DNA of 7,912 nt from Escherichia coli (GTDB taxonomy: Bacteria; Pseudomonadota; Gammaproteobacteria; Enterobacterales; Enterobacteriaceae): NCBI RefSeq assembly GCF_003334355.1, contig NZ_QOWP01000062.1; one strand, written 5' to 3'. The first letter of the stretch is position 1. Every line of letters begins with the position of its first letter. The notes under the pieces were generated by a model. It saw only the letters and a list, made by a program, of their open reading frames with translations, ran no database searches and was not told where the DNA came from. Of the stretch, positions 1 to 7,912 are shown piece by piece. A program made the translations under genes and the position numbers.

Positions 1-1
1 G

Positions 2-508
2 GAAAAACGAGTATTTTTAGTCATCCTGTTTACCTCTTTCTCAGGGAGTTTAGTCTCCAGGATTTCCGGGGCGGTTCATCGCGCCGAAGTTTTTGATTTT
101 GCCAGTATTGAAGGTAATGAAGAGAACAACGTATGGCTATGCGATTGCGCTAAAGTCTACGGTCACGCGCAGGTGAAAGCTGGCATAGAAGAAGATGCCA
201 TTCCGACGATTCATTACAGTTCGCAGGTGGCGGAATATGCCATTGTGAAAGGTAATTGTGTGTTAAAACATCATGTCTTGATTGGCGGAAATGCCGTGGT
301 ACGTGGTGGACCGATTCTGCTCGACGAGCACGTTGTAATACAAGGTGAGAGCCGTATTACAGGTGCGGTGATAATTGAAAACCATGTGGAGTTAACCGAC
401 CACGCCGTCGTTGAAGCCTTTGATGGCGACACGGTTCATGTCCGTGGTCCAAAAGTCATTAACGGCGAGGAGCGCATTACGCGAACGCCGCTGGCAGGGT
501 TATTATGA
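2..508 (+). CDS. ydcK: YdcK-like hexapeptide-repeat (left-handed beta-helix) acyltransferase-family protein, C-terminal part; 5' end lies upstream of the window
   Basis: Reading frame (codons starting at positions 2,5,8...) is open from the window edge to TGA at 506-508. The GTG at 173 used by the ORF track is internal. The translation shows repeated [LIV]-G-x-x-x-x hexapeptide-like units ([35 protein letters not shown]). Position convergent to rimL matches the E. coli neighbourhood. Confidence 0.8.
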
Positions 509-1465: not shown

Positions 1466-3121
1466 TTAACTCATCACGCGGTCGTCAACATACTGACGTT
1501 TATCCGGCGCTGGCGGGAAATACTGATACAGCCATGTTTCACTGATAGCGTCCCCCTGACAACGCAGATACATCCGCATATCGACCGGATCAGTGGAGTC
1601 CGACGTCGGATACCAGTCAAACTGAATACGATAACCATCAATGGGTTCAATATAGAGAATTTCGATTTGCTTCGCTTCCCCACTGGAAAGCGTAATCACC
1701 GGCTCAATGCCTTTTGGTGCGGCAGCTTTCAGATCACCACCAACGAAATCGACGGCAAAACGACGCGCCCATTTTTCGGGATAGTGTTCACCTGGCGCCC
1801 AACCTTCCGGGAAACCGCCCATGCCGGTACGCGTCGCCATAACGCGCGCTAATGGGCAATGAACAGGCGGTTGCGCACTCCAGTACAGACGATACTGGAA
1901 TGCAAACTCATCACCCGCTTTTACAGCTTTTTCTGGCTGCCAGAAGCAGACAATGTTATCCAGCGTTTCGCCCGTTGTTGGGATTTCCATCAGGCCGATG
2001 GTGCCCTTACCCCACTTGTTACGCGGTTCCACCCACAGACTTGGGCGTTTGTTATACCAGCCCATAATGTCCTGGTAATGGGAGAAGTCACGATCCAGTT
2101 GCAATAAACCAAACCCTTTCGGATTGTTGTCGGTGTAAGCATTGAACTGCAATTTTTGCGGATTATTCAGCGGACGGCAAATCCACTCGCCGTTGCCCCG
2201 CCACATGGACAGACGATCAGAGTCATGAATTTGCGGATGAATGGTGTCGCACATCCGACGTTCATTAGTACCGCAGCTGAACATACTGGTCATCGGCGCA
2301 ATGCCCAGCTGTTTAATGTCTTTGCGCGCATACAGGTGATTTTCCACATCCATAATCACCTGACTTTTCTCACAATGGATAGTGAACTTATAGGCACCAG
2401 TAATGCTGGCGCTATCGAGCAACGCATAAACGGTAAAGGTAGTTGCCCCCGGTTTTACCGTATCAAACCAGAAGGCGGTAAAGTCGGGGAACTCTTCTTT
2501 ACTGTCGGTGTAAGTGTCGATCGCCAGGCCGCGGGCCGACAAACCGTATTGATATGTATCATCAACGGCGCGGAAATAACTCGCGCCGAGAAATGATACT
2601 ACATCACGGCGCGCCAGTTCGGGGGCTTTAAACACGCGAAAACCGGCAAAGCCGAGATCGCTTTGCCCTTCTAATTGTTTGGTATCAACACCTGCATCGT
2701 TGTATTTGAACAACTCCGGGCGAAAGTGAATTTCACGCGCCAGATGTGTTGCTGGATCTACAGAAAACATACGAACGCGGCGACGGAATCCCATTCCCAT
2801 ATGGAAGAACTGAGCGTCCAGTTGACGGTTCTCAACGTTATGCCAGAGCGATTTTTCGGCGTCGTATTGAATACTGTTATAAGCCTGCGGCGTCATTGTC
2901 GCCAGCGTGTCAGGTAACGGACGAGGCGCACCACGCCACGCTGTTTGCGCTAAGTCGTGCGCCATTGACTGTAGAATGGAGAAGTCAAAACGCTGGGTTT
3001 GCCCGTCGGCAATATCAGAATCTGCCGCGAATGCCGCCTGAGAAAAAAGAGAAGCAATGCCGCTGGTACCGCACACGGCGGCCATAGCCATTGAACCTTT
3101 AATAAATCGTCTACGATCCAT
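1466..3121 (-). CDS. opgD: Glucans biosynthesis protein D (periplasmic, Tat-exported; osmoregulated periplasmic glucan backbone-length control)
   Basis: 551-aa ORF starting at ATG (rc of 3119-3121). N-terminus [35 protein letters not shown] has a twin-arginine motif (RRxFIK) and an AxA cleavage site. Length and sequence match my recollection of E. coli OpgD/MdoD. Confidence 0.93.
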
Positions 3122-3139
3122 ACCTGAAAGTGAGTCCTT

Positions 3140-3250
3140 CTGGTGTTGTGAATGGTCCCGCGCTGGTCGTTTTCAGCGGCAAGAAAGTGCTTATTTATGA
3201 CCGCTCACTCTAGACAATATTTATTAATAATCCAATTGTTGAACTGAGAG
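3140..3250 (-). promoter_or_regulatory. Probable opgD promoter region (AT-rich)
   Basis: Minus-strand sequence upstream of the opgD ATG contains TTGGAT-17 nt-TAGAGT and an overlapping TCATAAAT -10-like element inside a very AT-rich tract (aacaattggattattaataaatattg). No experimental anchor; the exact elements are uncertain. Confidence 0.3.
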
Positions 3251-3291
3251 AATATGCATAAATCGGCATTTTTTTTATGTCGATGGGATGA

Positions 3292-3316
3292 GCCTGATTC
3301 GTTTGTAAAATCAGGC
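3292..3316. other. Stem-loop 30 nt downstream of the ydcJ stop
   Basis: GCCTGATT(3292-3299)/AATCAGGC(3309-3316) 8-bp stem with a 9-nt loop. On the plus strand it is followed by aaaTTTTT; on the minus (ydcJ) strand no U-tract follows. Candidate transcript-end structure, orientation ambiguous. Confidence 0.3.
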
Positions 3317-3345
3317 AAATTTTTGCAAAGGCGGATGGTCAGAAT

Positions 3346-4689
3346 TTAAAGCAAACCACAGCGACGTTTACTGCGTTCTTCCGCTTCCTGATAAAGCTGG
3401 AACTCATCCAAAACCGGACAACCCAACGCCTGCTCAAATGCTTCGCGACTGGCATTACCGTGATTGCGTGCCTGCGTTTCATTACCCAGATTTGACTGGA
3501 AGATCCCCGCCGCGCTAACGGGCAAGAAATCTTCATAGGTAATGGGTTGCGCCGCGACCCAACCACGTTCAATTAAGGGCTGTGGATCGTCTCCGGGATG
3601 AATCGCCTGACGATGCGCCTCACCCGAAGGCGTCAGACGGTACCGGAACCATGCCAGCCCTTGCTGACGCATTAAAAACTCACTGTCAGGAAAAGTGCGG
3701 AAGGTTTCCTGTAAATGCATTTGGTGAGTGAGATTATCCTGCCCGGTTCCAGCGTTACGCAGAAGATCATCATACAGTTGTCGCCCTTTCGGCGTTAATG
3801 CCACGCCACGCTGCTCAATTTCACCAAAGCGCGCAGTATGCGTGCCCTGTTTCTGCCCCGCAAACAACACCGTCTCTTCCAGTGCTTTAAAGCTGGTCTG
3901 GCGTAGTAAAATCGGTACCTCGCGGCGCGGCGGCCCTTCGATCAGAATTTTTGGTTCAATTCCGCATTCAGGCATCATCGACTGCACCCGGTCAATATCC
4001 AGCGTACGTGGCGTCAGATGGTTGATATGGCATCCAGGAAAACAGACCACATCAGCAATCAACCGATGTTCGTTGTGCAAGGCGCGATAGGTTTCTTCAT
4101 CTACCGTTGCTGACTGGTGCCAGCGAAACGTTTCCAGGGCTTCCTGCACAAACTCCTGTGCCTGTGTTTCGTTAAAACCGCCCCGCTGCTCATATTCCTC
4201 TAACAGTAGTCGACAACGTGGGGTGAAGATATCGCGCTGACGTAGAATCTCCGCCGCTTTCTGGCGCAAAATTTCGTTCTCGATAAGCTCAAGGCGGAGT
4301 AACGAGGTAAAAACGCGGAAGGGATTACGCGCCAGAGAAGCATCATCAATGGGCCGAAATGCTGTCGAATGTACCGGCACCCCCGCCTGCGAGAGATCGT
4401 AATAGCTCACCGGGTACATCCCCATAATGGCAAACATCCGCCGAAGAGTAGCAAGCTCTTGTGCAGTCCCAACGCGAATCGCCCCATGACGTTCAACATT
4501 CAGTCGCGCCAGCTCGTCTGCATTTACCATTTTTTCGTGCAGTTGAGGATTGTTTTCCAGCACAGCCAGATTCACATCAGCTACCAGTTCCAGCAGCGTG
4601 CCGTACTGCGGAACTTCTTGCTGGTACATGGCTGACATTGCCTGCGAAAACTGTTCCCGAATCTCATCCGCCGTGATGCTGTTCGCCAT
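3346..4689 (-). CDS. ydcJ: DUF1338-family metalloprotein YdcJ (family includes HglS-type 2-oxoadipate dioxygenase/decarboxylase)
   Basis: 447-aa ORF with ATG start (rc of 4687-4689) preceded by a GGAGG Shine-Dalgarno 8 nt upstream. Stop TAA at 3346-3348. Sequence MANSITADEIREQF... matches my recollection of E. coli YdcJ. The enzymatic assignment is by family membership only. Confidence 0.88.
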   Translation of the reverse strand: MANSITADEIREQFSQAMSAMYQQEVPQYGTLLELVADVNLAVLENNPQLHEKMVNADELARLNVERHGAIRVGTAQELATLRRMFAIMGMYPVSYYDLSQAGVPVHSTAFRPIDDASLARNPFRVFTSLLRLELIENEILRQKAAEILRQRDIFTPRCRLLLEEYEQRGGFNETQAQEFVQEALETFRWHQSATVDEETYRALHNEHRLIADVVCFPGCHINHLTPRTLDIDRVQSMMPECGIEPKILIEGPPRREVPILLRQTSFKALEETVLFAGQKQGTHTARFGEIEQRGVALTPKGRQLYDDLLRNAGTGQDNLTHQMHLQETFRTFPDSEFLMRQQGLAWFRYRLTPSGEAHRQAIHPGDDPQPLIERGWVAAQPITYEDFLPVSAAGIFQSNLGNETQARNHGNASREAFEQALGCPVLDEFQLYQEAEERSKRRCGLL

Positions 4690-5866: not shown

Positions 5867-7507
5867 TCACACCGTAGCGAAACTAACTGGTTCACCCGCT
5901 CCGCGAGGTTCTGCCGACACAGAATGTTTGTGCAGACGGAATACATCCACCGCCTCAGTTAATCGTGCCGCCTGTTCTTCAAGGGACACCGCCGCCGCTG
6001 AGGCCTCTTCTACCAGAGAAGCATTCTGTTGCGTCACCTTATCCATTTCAGAAATCGCCTGGCTAACCTGCGTTATGCCTCTACTTTGTTCATCCGAGGC
6101 GGCGGCGATTTCCTGCATGATATGTGTGACACTCGCGACGGCATCAACAATAGTGCTCATGGTTTTCCCGGCCGTTGCCACCTCATCCGACCCCAGGTCA
6201 ATTAACCTGACTGATTCACTGATCAAGCCTTCAATCTCTTTCGCCGCCTGAGCGCTGCGACTTGCGAGTGTCCGTACTTCGCTGGCGACAACGGCAAATC
6301 CACGCCCTTGCTCACCCGCTCGCGCGGCTTCAACGGCAGCATTCAGTGCCAGAATATTCGTCTGGAAAGCAATACTGTTGATGACGGCGGTGATCTCAGA
6401 AATTTTCTTCGAACTCGTGGAGATAGCGCCCATCGTTTTTACTACACCGGAAACCGTCTGCCCGCCATCGCTGGCTTTAATAGAAGCCTCTTGCGCCAGT
6501 TTGCTGGCATGATGCGCGTTATCCGCATTCTGTTTCACCGTCGCAGTGAGTTGCTCCATGCTGGCGGCAGTTTGTTCGATAGCCGCCGCTTATTCTTCGG
6601 TGCGAGATGACAGGTCCGCATTGCCAGCTGAAATTTCGCTGGTGCCACGATAAATCTCTTCCGCGCCCTGTCGAACAGTCCCTACTGTCATCCCCAGTGA
6701 ATGCTGCATTTGCTGTAAATGACGACTTAAGCGACCGATTTCATTACGACCCGCCGGTTCATCATTCATCGTCAGATCGCCACTGGCGATTTTTTCAATC
6801 CGTTGTGCGGCATGTTGCAGTGGACGAATGACGATCCGACGTAGCACCATAAATGTTATCAGCGTCATGACCAGGGCAAGCACAAACGCGCCAATCATGA
6901 ACATCCCACCCAGGCGGGTGCGCTGATGGGCCAGTTCCGCCAGTTGGTTGGCTCTGGTGCTACGTATCTTAACGGCTTTGTTCAAAATATCGGTATAAGC
7001 ATTATCCAGCGGTCGGATCTGCTCACTTTCATGATTGATAATCGCTTCAAACATGCCATTTTTGGCATATTTCAACATAGGTTGCATACCCGTGATATAA
7101 GCCTGAAAGCGTTGATTTAATTCAGTGTCGAGGGCTTCATCAGCAGGTGTTTTCACCGGTCGATTCTGATAAGCACGATAACCTTGCTGCGACTGTTTAA
7201 TCTCCGATTCGGCTTGCGCAATATTTCGCTTCATTGCTTCCATTTCCGCAATACGACTCGCAGCCCCGGCCTGAATCATATTGATCCGGGCTGAACGCAA
7301 AAAATCTGAACTGTTCGCTAACCCGGTCCGAATCTCAATCTCCGCAGTAACATCACGCTGATCGCGATCGGCCTGCCAGAGGAAATAGCCAGCCAGAGCA
7401 GAACTTAATGCGAATAGAACTAAGATACCGCCAAGAATGCAGGCAAATAACGGAACCAGCCTGATGTGATGCAAAAAACCTAATCGATGTGAGGGAGTTG
7501 TATTCAT
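5867..7507 (-). pseudogene. trg: Methyl-accepting chemotaxis protein III (ribose/galactose chemoreceptor) with an in-frame premature TAA at codon 306
   Basis: Track ORFs 6590..7507 (305 aa, MNTTPSHRLGF...) and 5867..6559 (230 aa) are in the same frame. The first ends SSRTEE-TAA (plus 6590-6592); the 10 intervening codons read [10 protein letters not shown], then [15 protein letters not shown]... continues into the conserved signalling domain. 305 + 1 + 10 + 230 = 546 codons, the full length I recall for Trg. Confidence 0.8.
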
Positions 7508-7753: not shown

Positions 7754-7799
7754 GCCTGCGGGTGCCTGAGACTTTCTGTTTTCAGGCTAACCGGGAATC

Positions 7800-7853
7800 A
7801 GAAAGACGAAGGCCCCGACCGATATTTCTATCAACTGTACTGCACCCATTTTG
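7800..7853 (-). ncRNA. sokB: Putative Sok-type antisense RNA (sokB-like); ends approximate
   Basis: Transcript predicted from the strong minus-strand promoter at 7861-7889. It is antisense to the toxin mRNA leader just upstream of the putative mokB start. The complementary plus-strand leader (CAGAAAGACGAAGGCCCCG) resembles the R1 hok leader I recall. The 3' end is not defined by a clear terminator. Confidence 0.4.
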
Positions 7854-7860
7854 TTGGACG

Positions 7861-7889
7861 ATGAAATGGAATAGCCCCTAATATGTCAA
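7861..7889 (-). promoter_or_regulatory. Near-consensus sigma70 promoter on the minus strand (antisense/Sok promoter)
   Basis: Minus strand reads TTGACA (plus 7884-7889), a 17-nt spacer, then TTTCAT (plus 7861-7866). The -35 is a perfect consensus, the spacing is optimal and the -10 is 4/6. The -35 overlaps the plus-strand ATG at 7883. Confidence 0.5.
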
Positions 7890-7912
7890 AGCCAAAATAC
7901 CCTTTTGAAAAG
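7883..7912 (+). CDS. mokB: 5' end of putative mokB-like reading frame (hok/sok family modulator ORF), truncated by the window edge
   Basis: ATG at 7883 opens MSKPKYPFEK..., which runs off the window. It starts like R1 Mok (MSSPHQ..., from memory) and sits where the antisense promoter overlaps. No Shine-Dalgarno is visible. The Hok toxin ORF would lie beyond 7912. Confidence 0.3.
   Translation, partial: MSKPKYPFEK

What the first reader, a model, noticed from the sequence alone, without database searches (positions are those of the whole stretch)
3026..3121. OpgD carries a twin-arginine (Tat) signal peptide but only a weak, distant Shine-Dalgarno
The N-terminus [10 protein letters not shown]...AFA/ADS is a typical Tat signal, consistent with export of folded OpgD. 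The nearest good Shine-Dalgarno (AGAAGGA) sits about 13 nt from the ATG, further than optimal, with only AGG at -4. This may mean low translation initiation efficiency. This is known biology for opgD, noted for completeness.
Basis: partly seen in the sequence, partly recalled or inferred. Interest (0 to 1): 0.15.

Follow-up and report, generated by a model that had tools for sequence, protein, structure and literature searches.

The report
opgD start: Tat signal, distant Shine-Dalgarno
This is the start of the E. coli opgD (mdoD) gene, whose well-studied twin-arginine export signal is preceded by an ordinary-strength ribosome-binding motif placed unusually far (13 bases) from the start codon, a placement kept unchanged across enteric bacteria; it is known biology with one small unexplained detail.

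Summary
The window is E. coli chromosome. The finding covers codons 1-32 of opgD/mdoD, which lies on the minus strand (CDS 1466..3121).

The Tat signal is real and already established. MDRRRFIK matches the S/T-RRxFLK motif. TIGR01409 scores above its cutoff. This exact 32-residue peptide has been modelled bound to TatBC by cryo-EM (PDB 9E01).

ATG 3121 is the only start shared by about 86 Enterobacterales orthologues.

The Shine-Dalgarno description is partly right:
- AAGGA (3135..3139) is separated from the ATG by 13 nt, and AGG sits at -4..-2.
- Its pairing strength is the median of 178 annotated E. coli genes, so it is not weak.
- Only the distance is unusual: aligned spacing 11 against a mode of 5-6, in the top ~8%.

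What I add:
- AAGGA, a U at -8 and CAGG at -5..-2 are invariant or nearly so, in fixed register, in 76 distinct Enterobacteriaceae sequences.
- An RGGA motif stays 12-13 nt from the ATG in six outgroup Enterobacterales species, but not in Pseudomonas.
- So the long spacer is selected, not decay.

A conserved SD-sequestering hairpin and CsrA control were tested and not supported. Low translation efficiency is plausible but untested. The practical consequence is that gene callers often mis-start this gene and lose the RR motif. Low interest.

The parts
1466..3121 (-). opgD (mdoD) coding sequence, 551 aa, glucan biosynthesis protein D (MdoG/GH186 family)
   Evidence: ORF list and translation. RefSeq annotates the 100%-identical locus as opgD. 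Pfam MdoG PF04349, E = 2e-180. Matches PDB 9E01/9E08/8IOX 'Glucans biosynthesis protein D' over residues 1-551.
3026..3121 (-). Tat signal peptide, codons 1-32 ([32 protein letters not shown])
   Evidence: coordinates. TIGR01409 aligns residues 2-32 at 24.5 bits against a cutoff of 16.7. PMC13323110 describes a 32-residue MdoD signal peptide.
3098..3118 (-). Twin-arginine motif D2-R3-R4-R5-F6-I7-K8 (consensus S/T-R-R-x-F-L-K)
   Evidence: Codons 3-4 (CGY AGA) and F6 are invariant in 76 sequences. R3, R4, F6, I7 and K8 contacts were modelled in the TatBC-MdoD cryo-EM structure.
3026..3034 (-). A30-F31-A32, the AxA signal-peptidase site; the mature protein begins A33-D-S-D
   Evidence: The MdoD(M1-D36)-YebF reporter is processed in the periplasm (PMC9995818). 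Signal length of 32 residues.
3119..3121 (-). ATG start codon
   Evidence: First start codon after the in-frame stop 54 nt upstream; no upstream ATG/GTG/TTG. Invariant in all orthologues.
3135..3139 (-). Shine-Dalgarno core AAGGA at -18..-14, with a 13-nt gap to the ATG (aligned spacing 11)
   Evidence: Invariant in 76/76 distinct Enterobacteriaceae sequences. RGGA at the same position or 1 nt closer in Cronobacter, Erwinia, Pantoea, Musicola, Rahnella and Sodalis.
3127..3130 (-). Pyrimidine tract CUUU at -9..-6 (U at -8 is 95% conserved)
3123..3126 (-). CAGG box at -5..-2, 99-100% conserved in Enterobacteriaceae; GG at -3/-2 kept in all Enterobacterales examined; too close to the ATG to act as an SD; function unexplained
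3122..3144 (-). Hairpin specific to E. coli, Citrobacter and Salmonella, ACC-A-GAAGG/ACUCA/CUUUC-A-GGU, that would bury the SD (-6.3 kcal/mol)
   Evidence: Not conserved beyond what base composition gives.
3102..3121 (-). Predicted hairpin AUGGAUCG/UAGA/CGAUUUAU containing the start codon (P(unpaired) of AUG = 0.10)
   Evidence: Weakened in most other genera.
3083..3100 (-). Decoy start region: AAAGG (3096..3100) followed by ATG codon 11 (3089..3091) and ATG codon 13 (3083..3085)
   Evidence: Met11 and Met13 are not conserved (positions 31 and 37). Automated gene calls of 539-542 aa start here and lose the RR motif.
3207..3235 (-). Probable opgD promoter: -35 TTGGAT (3230..3235), 17-nt spacer, -10 TAGAGT (3207..3212) preceded by TC
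   Evidence: Block conserved across genera while its distance to the ATG varies from 54 to 92 nt. Not called by the consensus scan. Inferred, with no TSS data.

Best explanation
Window 3026..3121 (minus strand) encodes the 32-residue twin-arginine signal peptide of E. coli OpgD/MdoD. The protein folds and dimerises in the cytoplasm and is exported by TatABC. TatC recognises D2-R3-R4-x-F6-I7-K8, and signal peptidase cuts after A30-F31-A32.

Translation starts at ATG 3121. The ribosome is recruited by a 5-bp AAGGA:UCCUU Shine-Dalgarno pairing of ordinary strength. It sits 13 nt upstream of the ATG, about 5-6 nt farther than the E. coli optimum. No usable SD lies in the canonical window.

This stretched geometry, together with a pyrimidine tract and a CAGG box just before the ATG, is held fixed by selection throughout Enterobacteriaceae and, within 1 nt, Enterobacterales.

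The most likely consequence is a deliberately modest translation initiation rate. This step is inferred, not shown. In the Escherichia/Citrobacter/Salmonella clade, local hairpins over the SD and the AUG would reinforce it. The purpose of the CAGG box is not explained.
For: Identity:
- 5418 of 5426 complete E. coli genomes carry the locus, annotated opgD.
- Pfam MdoG.
- Matches PDB MdoD chains over residues 1-551, with residues 1-102 identical in the printed alignment.

Tat signal:
- TIGR01409 scores above its cutoff.
- Cryo-EM of TatBC-MdoD models the motif residues. An MdoD variant lacking the signal peptide reached the periplasm when co-produced with signal-bearing MdoD, so one signal peptide per dimer suffices (PMC13323110).
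- The MdoD signal peptide exports YebF in a way that depends on CyDisCo and Tat.
- RR is conserved out to Pseudomonas and Chromohalobacter.

Start codon:
- No upstream in-frame start exists in E. coli.
- In-frame stops lie as close as -12 and -21 in other species.
- Met11 and Met13 are variable.

SD:
- Geometry.
- Strength is at the median and spacing is in the top 8% of 178 genes.
- The genome-wide optimum is 5-7 nt (PMC5303271; PMC2176067).

Selection:
- AAGGA, U-8 and CAGG are invariant or near-invariant, with no indel, in 76 distinct sequences, while the spacer and the upstream UTR vary.
- A control gene in the same loci, rimL, shows no conservation of its initiation region.
- The arrangement is retained in Erwinia, Pantoea, Musicola, Rahnella, Sodalis and Cronobacter but not in Pseudomonas.
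- 5404 of 5407 E. coli genomes are identical over -25..+15.

Accessibility: the E. coli initiation region is in the bottom 4% and the AUG in the bottom 8% of 178 genes.
Against: - I could not obtain any measurement of opgD translation efficiency or protein abundance. 'Low initiation rate' therefore rests on rules of thumb.
- Nothing proves that AAGGA is the element the ribosome uses. Its conservation could serve another ligand.
- The CAGG box, U-8 and the synonymous-site invariance of codon 4 (AGA) and codon 6 (UUU) are not explained by a simple SD model.
- Predicted low accessibility is not a conserved property. The orthologue median is 0.46, against an E. coli gene median of 0.51.
- PMC9995818 notes that the MdoD signal peptide may also be capable of Sec targeting. 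The c-region carries no basic Sec-avoidance residue.
Confidence: 0.72

Rival explanations
1. The invariant AAGGA...U...CAGG-AUG block is mainly the binding site of a trans-acting regulator, either an RNA-binding protein or a base-pairing sRNA, that controls opgD translation. The odd SD distance would then be a by-product of that site's architecture.
For: - Conservation reaches positions an SD does not need: CAGG at -5..-2, U-8, and the synonymous A of codon 4 AGA.
- There are two AGG-containing boxes 13 nt apart.
- A CA-rich stretch (CACAACACCA) lies just upstream in E. coli.
Against: - CsrA, the obvious GGA-binding candidate, has no CLIP-seq peak on opgD. TE log2FC in the csrA mutant is 0.007, not significant (PMC5694010 Supplementary Data 2).
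- No Rfam family hits the 5' UTR, even at E <= 5.
- No paper in the library links opgD to an sRNA.
- The second box is GGC/GGU, not GGA.
Confidence: 0.13
2. A conserved hairpin sequesters the SD by pairing (A)AGG(A) with the downstream U-rich tract. It acts as a translational repressor or thermometer-like switch, and this is why the spacer length is fixed.
For: - In E. coli the stem ACC-A-GAAGG/CUUUC-A-GGU folds at -6.3 kcal/mol and is the MFE in context.
- Similar small stems can be drawn in Erwinia, Sodalis, Rahnella and Buttiauxella.
Against: - The z-score is only -1.7.
- Across 47 distinct sequences the mean dG is -2.48, against -2.36 for spacer shuffles. GGA is paired no more often than in shuffles.
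- On the alignment only 63% of cells pair, against 62% in shuffles and 59% when the partner is slid by one column. The covariation score equals the shuffle mean.
- Several genera (Kosakonia, the RIT691 group, Cronobacter) lack the stem.
Confidence: 0.07
3. Translation really starts at Met11 or Met13, using the AAAGG at +22..+26 as the SD. This would give a protein without the RR motif, as many automated annotations assume.
For: - AAAGG lies 4 nt before ATG codon 11 and 10 nt before ATG codon 13.
- Gene callers produce forms of 539-542 aa. One of them, P0003, represents 10,918 member sequences.
Against: - Met11 is Leu in 10 of 76 sequences and Met13 is variable. The AAAGG is absent in many genera, where the sequence reads AAATCT or CAGGCA.
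- The RR motif upstream is invariant at the amino-acid level and is functionally required.
- RefSeq annotates the 551-aa form.
Confidence: 0.03
4. The AAGGA is not used as an SD at all. Initiation would be SD-independent, for example S1 binding to the U-rich spacer, and the motif would be conserved for an unrelated reason.
For: - About 15% of the sampled E. coli genes also lack any >=3-bp anti-SD match in the canonical window.
- A U/pyrimidine-rich spacer is conserved.
Against: - The invariant pentamer is exactly complementary to UCCUU of the 16S 3' end.
- The motif changes only to other anti-SD-complementary forms: GAGGA, CAGGA, UAGGA.
- Pseudomonas has its purine motif at ordinary spacing. 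This suggests an SD that has moved rather than disappeared.
Confidence: 0.05

Closest known systems
E. coli K-12 MdoD/OpgD Tat signal peptide (UniProt P40120; PDB 9E01 TatBC-MdoD)
   Same: - Residues 1-102 are identical in the printed PDB alignment.
- Same RR motif, 32-residue length and AFA|ADSD junction.
   Different: Nothing in the signal peptide. The window's protein differs from the PDB/K-12 sequence at one mature-domain residue, Pro versus Ser near position 438.
Other E. coli Tat signal peptides (TorA, AmiC, CueO)
   Same: - Tripartite n/h/c layout.
- S/T-RRxFLK-type motif.
- Moderately hydrophobic h-region (mean Kyte-Doolittle 1.25 over residues 9-27).
- AxA cleavage site.
   Different: - Very short n-region: the RR starts at residue 3, with Asp as the helix cap instead of Ser/Thr.
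- No basic residue in the c-region.
- Reported to export a reporter far better than the TorA signal peptide.
Canonical E. coli Shine-Dalgarno ribosome-binding site
   Same: A 5-nt stretch complementary to the 16S 3' end (AAGGA:UCCUU), an AUG start, and a U-rich unstructured-type spacer.
   Different: - Aligned spacing is 11 nt, against a mode of 5-6 in 178 genes and an optimum of 5-7 in the literature.
- The spacing is evolutionarily frozen.
OpgG (MdoG), the Sec-exported paralogue
   Same: Same MdoG/GH186 fold family.
   Different: OpgG aligns only from residue ~46 onward (PDB 1TXK/8IP2), so the signal peptides are unrelated. From my own knowledge of Lequette 2004, OpgG is Sec-dependent. I did not examine the opgG ribosome-binding site here.

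Membership tests
Twin-arginine (Tat) signal peptide (TIGR01409 / PF10518) | Profile match above the curated threshold | tested here: met
   TIGR01409 scores 24.5 bits on residues 1-40 and 17.5 bits on the full protein, against a cutoff of 16.7. Pfam TAT_signal is only weak, E = 0.022.
Twin-arginine (Tat) signal peptide (TIGR01409 / PF10518) | S/T-R-R-x-F-L-K motif at the n/h boundary | tested here: met
   D2-R3-R4-R5-F6-I7-K8. R3, R4 and F6 are invariant in 76 orthologous sequences.
Twin-arginine (Tat) signal peptide (TIGR01409 / PF10518) | Hydrophobic h-region followed by an AxA signal-peptidase site | tested here: met
   Residues 9-27 have a mean Kyte-Doolittle value of 1.25. A30-F31-A32 is followed by ADSD.
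Twin-arginine (Tat) signal peptide (TIGR01409 / PF10518) | Physical recognition by TatBC and signal-dependent export of the folded protein | not testable with these tools
   Taken from the literature: the cryo-EM TatBC-MdoD structure and export assays (PMC13323110), the reporter export study (PMC9995818), and the title of Lequette 2004.
OpgD/MdoD, MdoG superfamily (GH186 beta-1,2-glucanase-like) | Full-length MdoG domain and near-identity to characterised E. coli OpgD | tested here: met
   PF04349 covers residues 45-534, E = 2e-180. PDB 8IOX/9E08 align over residues 1-551 at ~1310 bits. RefSeq names it OpgD.
Canonical SD-led ribosome-binding site | >=4-5 contiguous bases complementary to the 16S 3' end upstream of the start | tested here: met
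   AAGGA pairs with UCCUU at -5.4 kcal/mol, against a median of -5.7 for 178 genes.
Canonical SD-led ribosome-binding site | Aligned spacing within the usual 4-9 nt window | tested here: not met
   Aligned spacing is 11, and there is no >=3-bp match at spacings 3-9.
CsrA-repressed mRNA | CsrA crosslinking and/or a change in translation efficiency in a csrA mutant | tested here: not met
   In published data read here, opgD shows CLIP-seq 'No', TE log2FC 0.007, and 'NS' overall (PMC5694010 Supplementary Data 2).
Structured cis-regulatory leader (Rfam family or conserved SD-sequestering helix) | Covariance-model hit or covariation-supported helix | tested here: not met
   No Rfam hit in 3000..3400 at E <= 5. 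The candidate helix shows no excess pairing or covariation.

The most novel reading that the evidence does not exclude
The frozen AAGGA-N13-AUG arrangement, with its invariant CAGG box, U-8 and synonymous-site-invariant AGA and UUU codons, may be a dedicated translational control element of Enterobacterales opgD. It would be either the docking site of an as yet unidentified RNA-binding factor or sRNA, or a purpose-built low-rate ribosome-binding site that matches synthesis of a cytoplasmically folding, dimerising substrate to limited Tat capacity.
Probability: 0.15. Interest if true: 0.4.

Novelty: already known. Interest (0 to 1): 0.17.

Why it matters
The Tat signal of MdoD is textbook-level knowledge. 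It is now one of the structurally best-defined Tat signal peptides, so the finding adds nothing there.

There are two modest take-aways.

1. Annotation. opgD has no SD in the canonical window, and a decoy AAAGG-ATG lies 10-12 codons downstream. Automated gene callers therefore often truncate or extend the gene and delete the twin-arginine motif. One 539-aa cluster, P0003, has 10,918 member sequences. This would mislead Tat-substrate censuses built on metagenome gene calls.

2. Ribosome-binding-site rules. A long SD-AUG spacer that is invariant over an entire bacterial order is a clean natural example of selection on spacing rather than on SD strength. It could be useful for calibrating ribosome-binding-site models.

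Tried and rejected
- **Conserved SD-sequestering hairpin.** It folds in E. coli. It shows no excess stability over spacer shuffles in 47 sequences and no covariation or excess pairing on the alignment. Rejected as a conserved element.
- **Consensus structure of -30..+60 by RNAalifold.** No consistent helix emerged, and the 'energy' was almost all covariance bonus from conserved coding columns.
- **CsrA regulation via GGA motifs.** Published CLIP and ribosome-profiling tables show no binding and no TE change.
- **Known RNA families in the leader.** None found.
- **Upstream coding extension or alternative start.** The translated upstream frame looks conserved (x-K-D-x-x-S-G-M). However, E. coli has no start codon there. 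C. sedlakii has an in-frame TGA at -12 and seven loci have a stop at -21. The UUG at -9 (Kluyvera) and GUG at -12 (Kosakonia) are lineage-specific. Rejected.
- **uORF coupling through an AUGA overlap.** Present only where codon 2 is AAY, and absent in E. coli. Rejected.
- **Downstream starts at Met11/Met13.** Not conserved.
- **Low initiation-region accessibility as a conserved property.** True for E. coli but only marginal across orthologues.
- **Expression data.** Li 2014, Schmidt 2016, Lequette 2004 and Chen 1994 are not held. Mori 2021 and the acid-stress ribosome-profiling supplements gave no usable abundance or TE for opgD. The RIL-seq supplements are not held.
- **Wasted search.** One broad literature search was badly specified and returned nothing relevant.
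Full report
**What and where**

The window is E. coli chromosome. A 1-kb query around the finding matches 5418 of 5426 complete genomes and is 100% identical to strain 214-4. There the genes are annotated, in window order, tehA, ydcK, rimL, ydcH, opgD, hglS(ydcJ), ydcI, trg and hokB.

The finding's coordinates 3026..3121 lie on the minus strand. They are exactly the first 32 codons of the 551-aa ORF 1466..3121: [32 protein letters not shown], followed by ADSD. The protein is OpgD/MdoD. Pfam MdoG matches at E = 2e-180, and the PDB chains named 'Glucans biosynthesis protein D' (9E01, 9E08, 8IOX) align over residues 1-551.

**The Tat signal**

The N-terminus matches the NCBIfam Tat-signal model TIGR01409 above its curated cutoff: 24.5 bits on the first 40 aa and 17.5 on the whole protein, against a cutoff of 16.7. 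Pfam's short TAT_signal model is only marginal, E = 0.022.

The anatomy is canonical:
- D2-R3-R4-R5-F6-I7-K8 against the consensus S/T-RRxFLK;
- a 19-residue, moderately hydrophobic h-region (mean Kyte-Doolittle 1.25);
- an A-F-A site before A33.

This is not just a prediction. A 2026 cryo-EM study used this very protein as its model substrate (PDB 9E01). It modelled D2 capping helix H1, R3 bonded via an intermediary water to TatC E15, R4 in a salt bridge to TatC E103, F6 in a hydrophobic pocket, and I7 and K8 facing lipid. It states a 32-residue signal peptide. [quoted passage not shown]

The MdoD signal peptide (M1-D36) also drives export of YebF in a manner linked to cytoplasmic folding and to Tat. 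The authors caution that it may also be capable of Sec targeting (PMC9995818). The original description is Lequette et al. 2004, seen here only as a cited title.

The RR pair is invariant in all 76 distinct Enterobacteriaceae sequences. It persists in the six outgroup Enterobacterales species and in Pseudomonas and Chromohalobacter.

**The start codon**

- ATG 3121 is the first ATG/GTG/TTG after an in-frame stop 54 nt upstream.
- In other species in-frame stops come as close as -12 and -21. Upstream in-frame start codons, where they exist, are lineage-specific.
- The downstream candidates Met11 and Met13 are not conserved. Position +31 is C in 10 of 76 sequences, and codon 13 varies freely.

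So the refuting condition 'start codon elsewhere' is not met.

**The Shine-Dalgarno element**

On the mRNA strand the sequence reads ...CACCAGAAGGACUCACUUUCAGGU AUG. AAGGA occupies -18..-14 (window 3135..3139), 13 nt separate it from the AUG, and AGG sits at -4..-2.

To judge 'weak' and 'distant' I built a background of 178 intact annotated CDS from five stretches of the same E. coli genome. I scored every ungapped register against 5'-ACCUCCUUA-3'. Best registers cluster at aligned spacings 4-8, with a mode of 5-6. This agrees with published optima (PMC5303271; PMC2176067).

For opgD:
- The best register is at spacing 11. Only 8% of genes are that far or farther, and 5 of 99 among genes with an SD at least as strong.
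- Its duplex energy (-5.4) is essentially the median (-5.7).
- It has no match of 3 bp or more at spacings 3-9, which is true of 15% of genes.

So the SD is ordinary in strength and unusual in position.

**Conservation**

A scan of one genome per species returned 80 Enterobacteriaceae loci with 82-99% protein identity. Anchored on the ATG:
- AAGGA is invariant at -18..-14 in 76 of 76 distinct sequences;
- U-8 is 95% conserved, and CAGG at -5..-2 is 99-100%;
- there is no indel in the 18 nt;
- the spacer bases and the UTR upstream of -21 vary freely, at about 0.3 bit per position.

In the same loci the initiation region of rimL is not conserved at all.

Six outgroup Enterobacterales species (Cronobacter, Musicola, Erwinia, Rahnella, Pantoea, Sodalis) keep an RGGA motif at the same position or 1 nt closer. 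They also keep a U-rich tract and NGGC before the AUG. Pseudomonas has its purine motif at ordinary spacing, and Chromohalobacter lacks the pattern.

Within E. coli, -25..+15 is identical in 5404 of 5407 matching genomes. Over the surrounding 1 kb, 1725 genomes fall in the 95-99% identity band.

The long spacer is therefore maintained by selection.

**Why might it be maintained?**

I tested the obvious ideas.

1. *An SD-sequestering hairpin.* In E. coli GAAGG pairs with CUUUC, closed by ACC/GGU, at -6.3 kcal/mol. A second hairpin buries the AUG. Together these put the E. coli initiation region in the least accessible 4% of the 178 genes. The stem is not conserved beyond what its composition gives:
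   - the mean dG is -2.48, against -2.36 for spacer shuffles;
   - 63% of cells pair, against 62% in shuffles;
   - the covariation score equals the shuffle mean;
   - accessibility across orthologues is only marginally below the background.
2. *CsrA.* Published CLIP and ribosome-profiling tables list no binding and a TE log2FC of 0.007 for opgD.
3. *Known RNA families.* None hit the leader.
4. *A hidden coding extension or a coupled uORF.* Excluded by stops and by the lack of start codons.

What remains is a stretched but genuine SD-led site whose low-to-moderate initiation rate is itself the selected trait. This is plausible for a protein that must fold and dimerise before using a low-capacity export pathway, but I have no direct evidence for it. 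The alternative is a site for an unidentified ligand. The CAGG box, U-8 and the synonymous-site invariance of codon 4 (AGA) and codon 6 (UUU) are unexplained.

**Comparison with what is known, and verdict**

The Tat signal is a known member of a known family, and is in fact one of its structural reference cases. The ribosome-binding site works like a standard SD site but fails the spacing criterion. I found no paper describing this.

A practical consequence is start-site mis-annotation. Database clusters of 539-542 aa start at Met11 or Met13 and lack RR, and one of them holds 10,918 member sequences. Others of 560-614 aa are over-extended.

Overall the finding is correct, ordinary and already explained in its main part. 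The conserved long spacer is a minor new detail.

Interest is 0.17. Novelty: already known.

Noticed in passing
window 6590..6592 (minus strand; trg spans 5867..7507): trg carries a premature TAA at codon 306, where the reference strain has Gln. This splits the chemoreceptor gene into 305-aa and 230-aa ORFs. The exact 51-mer around the stop occurs in only 11 of 5426 complete E. coli genomes, so this is a rare lineage-specific pseudogene allele.
   Followed up: partly
window 3207..3235 (minus strand): There is a probable opgD promoter: TTGGAT, a 17-nt spacer, then TAGAGT preceded by TC (a sigma-S-like TCTAGAGT). It sits inside a block, CAACAATTGGATTAT...TTTTGTCTAGAGTG, that is conserved across Enterobacteriaceae genera while its distance to the ATG varies from 54 to 92 nt. 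The consensus scan did not call it. No TSS data were available.
   Followed up: partly
window ~3160..3185 (minus strand; 5' UTR -64..-39): A hairpin sits in the middle of the UTR (CUUGC-CGCUG / CAGCG-CGGG). It is replaced by different inverted repeats in other genera: UUUCGC/GCGAAA in Enterobacter and Kosakonia, ACGACGC/GCGUCGU in Klebsiella and Raoultella. This hints at a structure conserved without sequence. The z-scores are weak (mean -0.56), and Kluyvera and Pseudocitrobacter lack it.
   Followed up: partly
window 3083..3100 (minus strand) and protein clusters P0003, P0010, P0021, P0005, P0006, P0049, P0050, P0069: Automated gene calls often mis-start opgD. Forms of 539-542 aa begin at Met11 or Met13, behind an AAAGG decoy SD, and lose the twin-arginine motif; P0003 alone stands for 10,918 sequences. 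Forms of 560-614 aa are over-extended upstream.
   Followed up: yes
window 3110..3112 (codon 4 AGA) and 3104..3106 (codon 6 TTT), minus strand: The second arginine of the RR pair is always encoded by the rare codon AGA, and Phe6 always by UUU, in 76 distinct sequences. Neighbouring synonymous sites vary freely. The cause is unknown; an A/U-rich start region or an RNA-level contact are possibilities.
   Followed up: no
window 7760..7912 (+): The sok antitoxin RNA (Rfam RF01794, 72.4 bits) of the hokB/sokB type I toxin-antitoxin locus lies next to trg.
   Followed up: no
window 1..76: The first ~76 bases of the window do not align collinearly with strain 214-4, which is otherwise near-identical downstream. 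This may be a strain-specific rearrangement or insertion boundary near tehA/ydcK.
   Followed up: no
window 3141..3150 (minus strand): A CA-rich element, CACAACACCA, lies immediately upstream of the SD. It resembles the C/A-rich translational enhancers and GcvB target sites of periplasmic-protein mRNAs. It is conserved as CACACGACCA in many genera but absent in Kluyvera. I recalled the GcvB seed from memory and did not test it.
   Followed up: no
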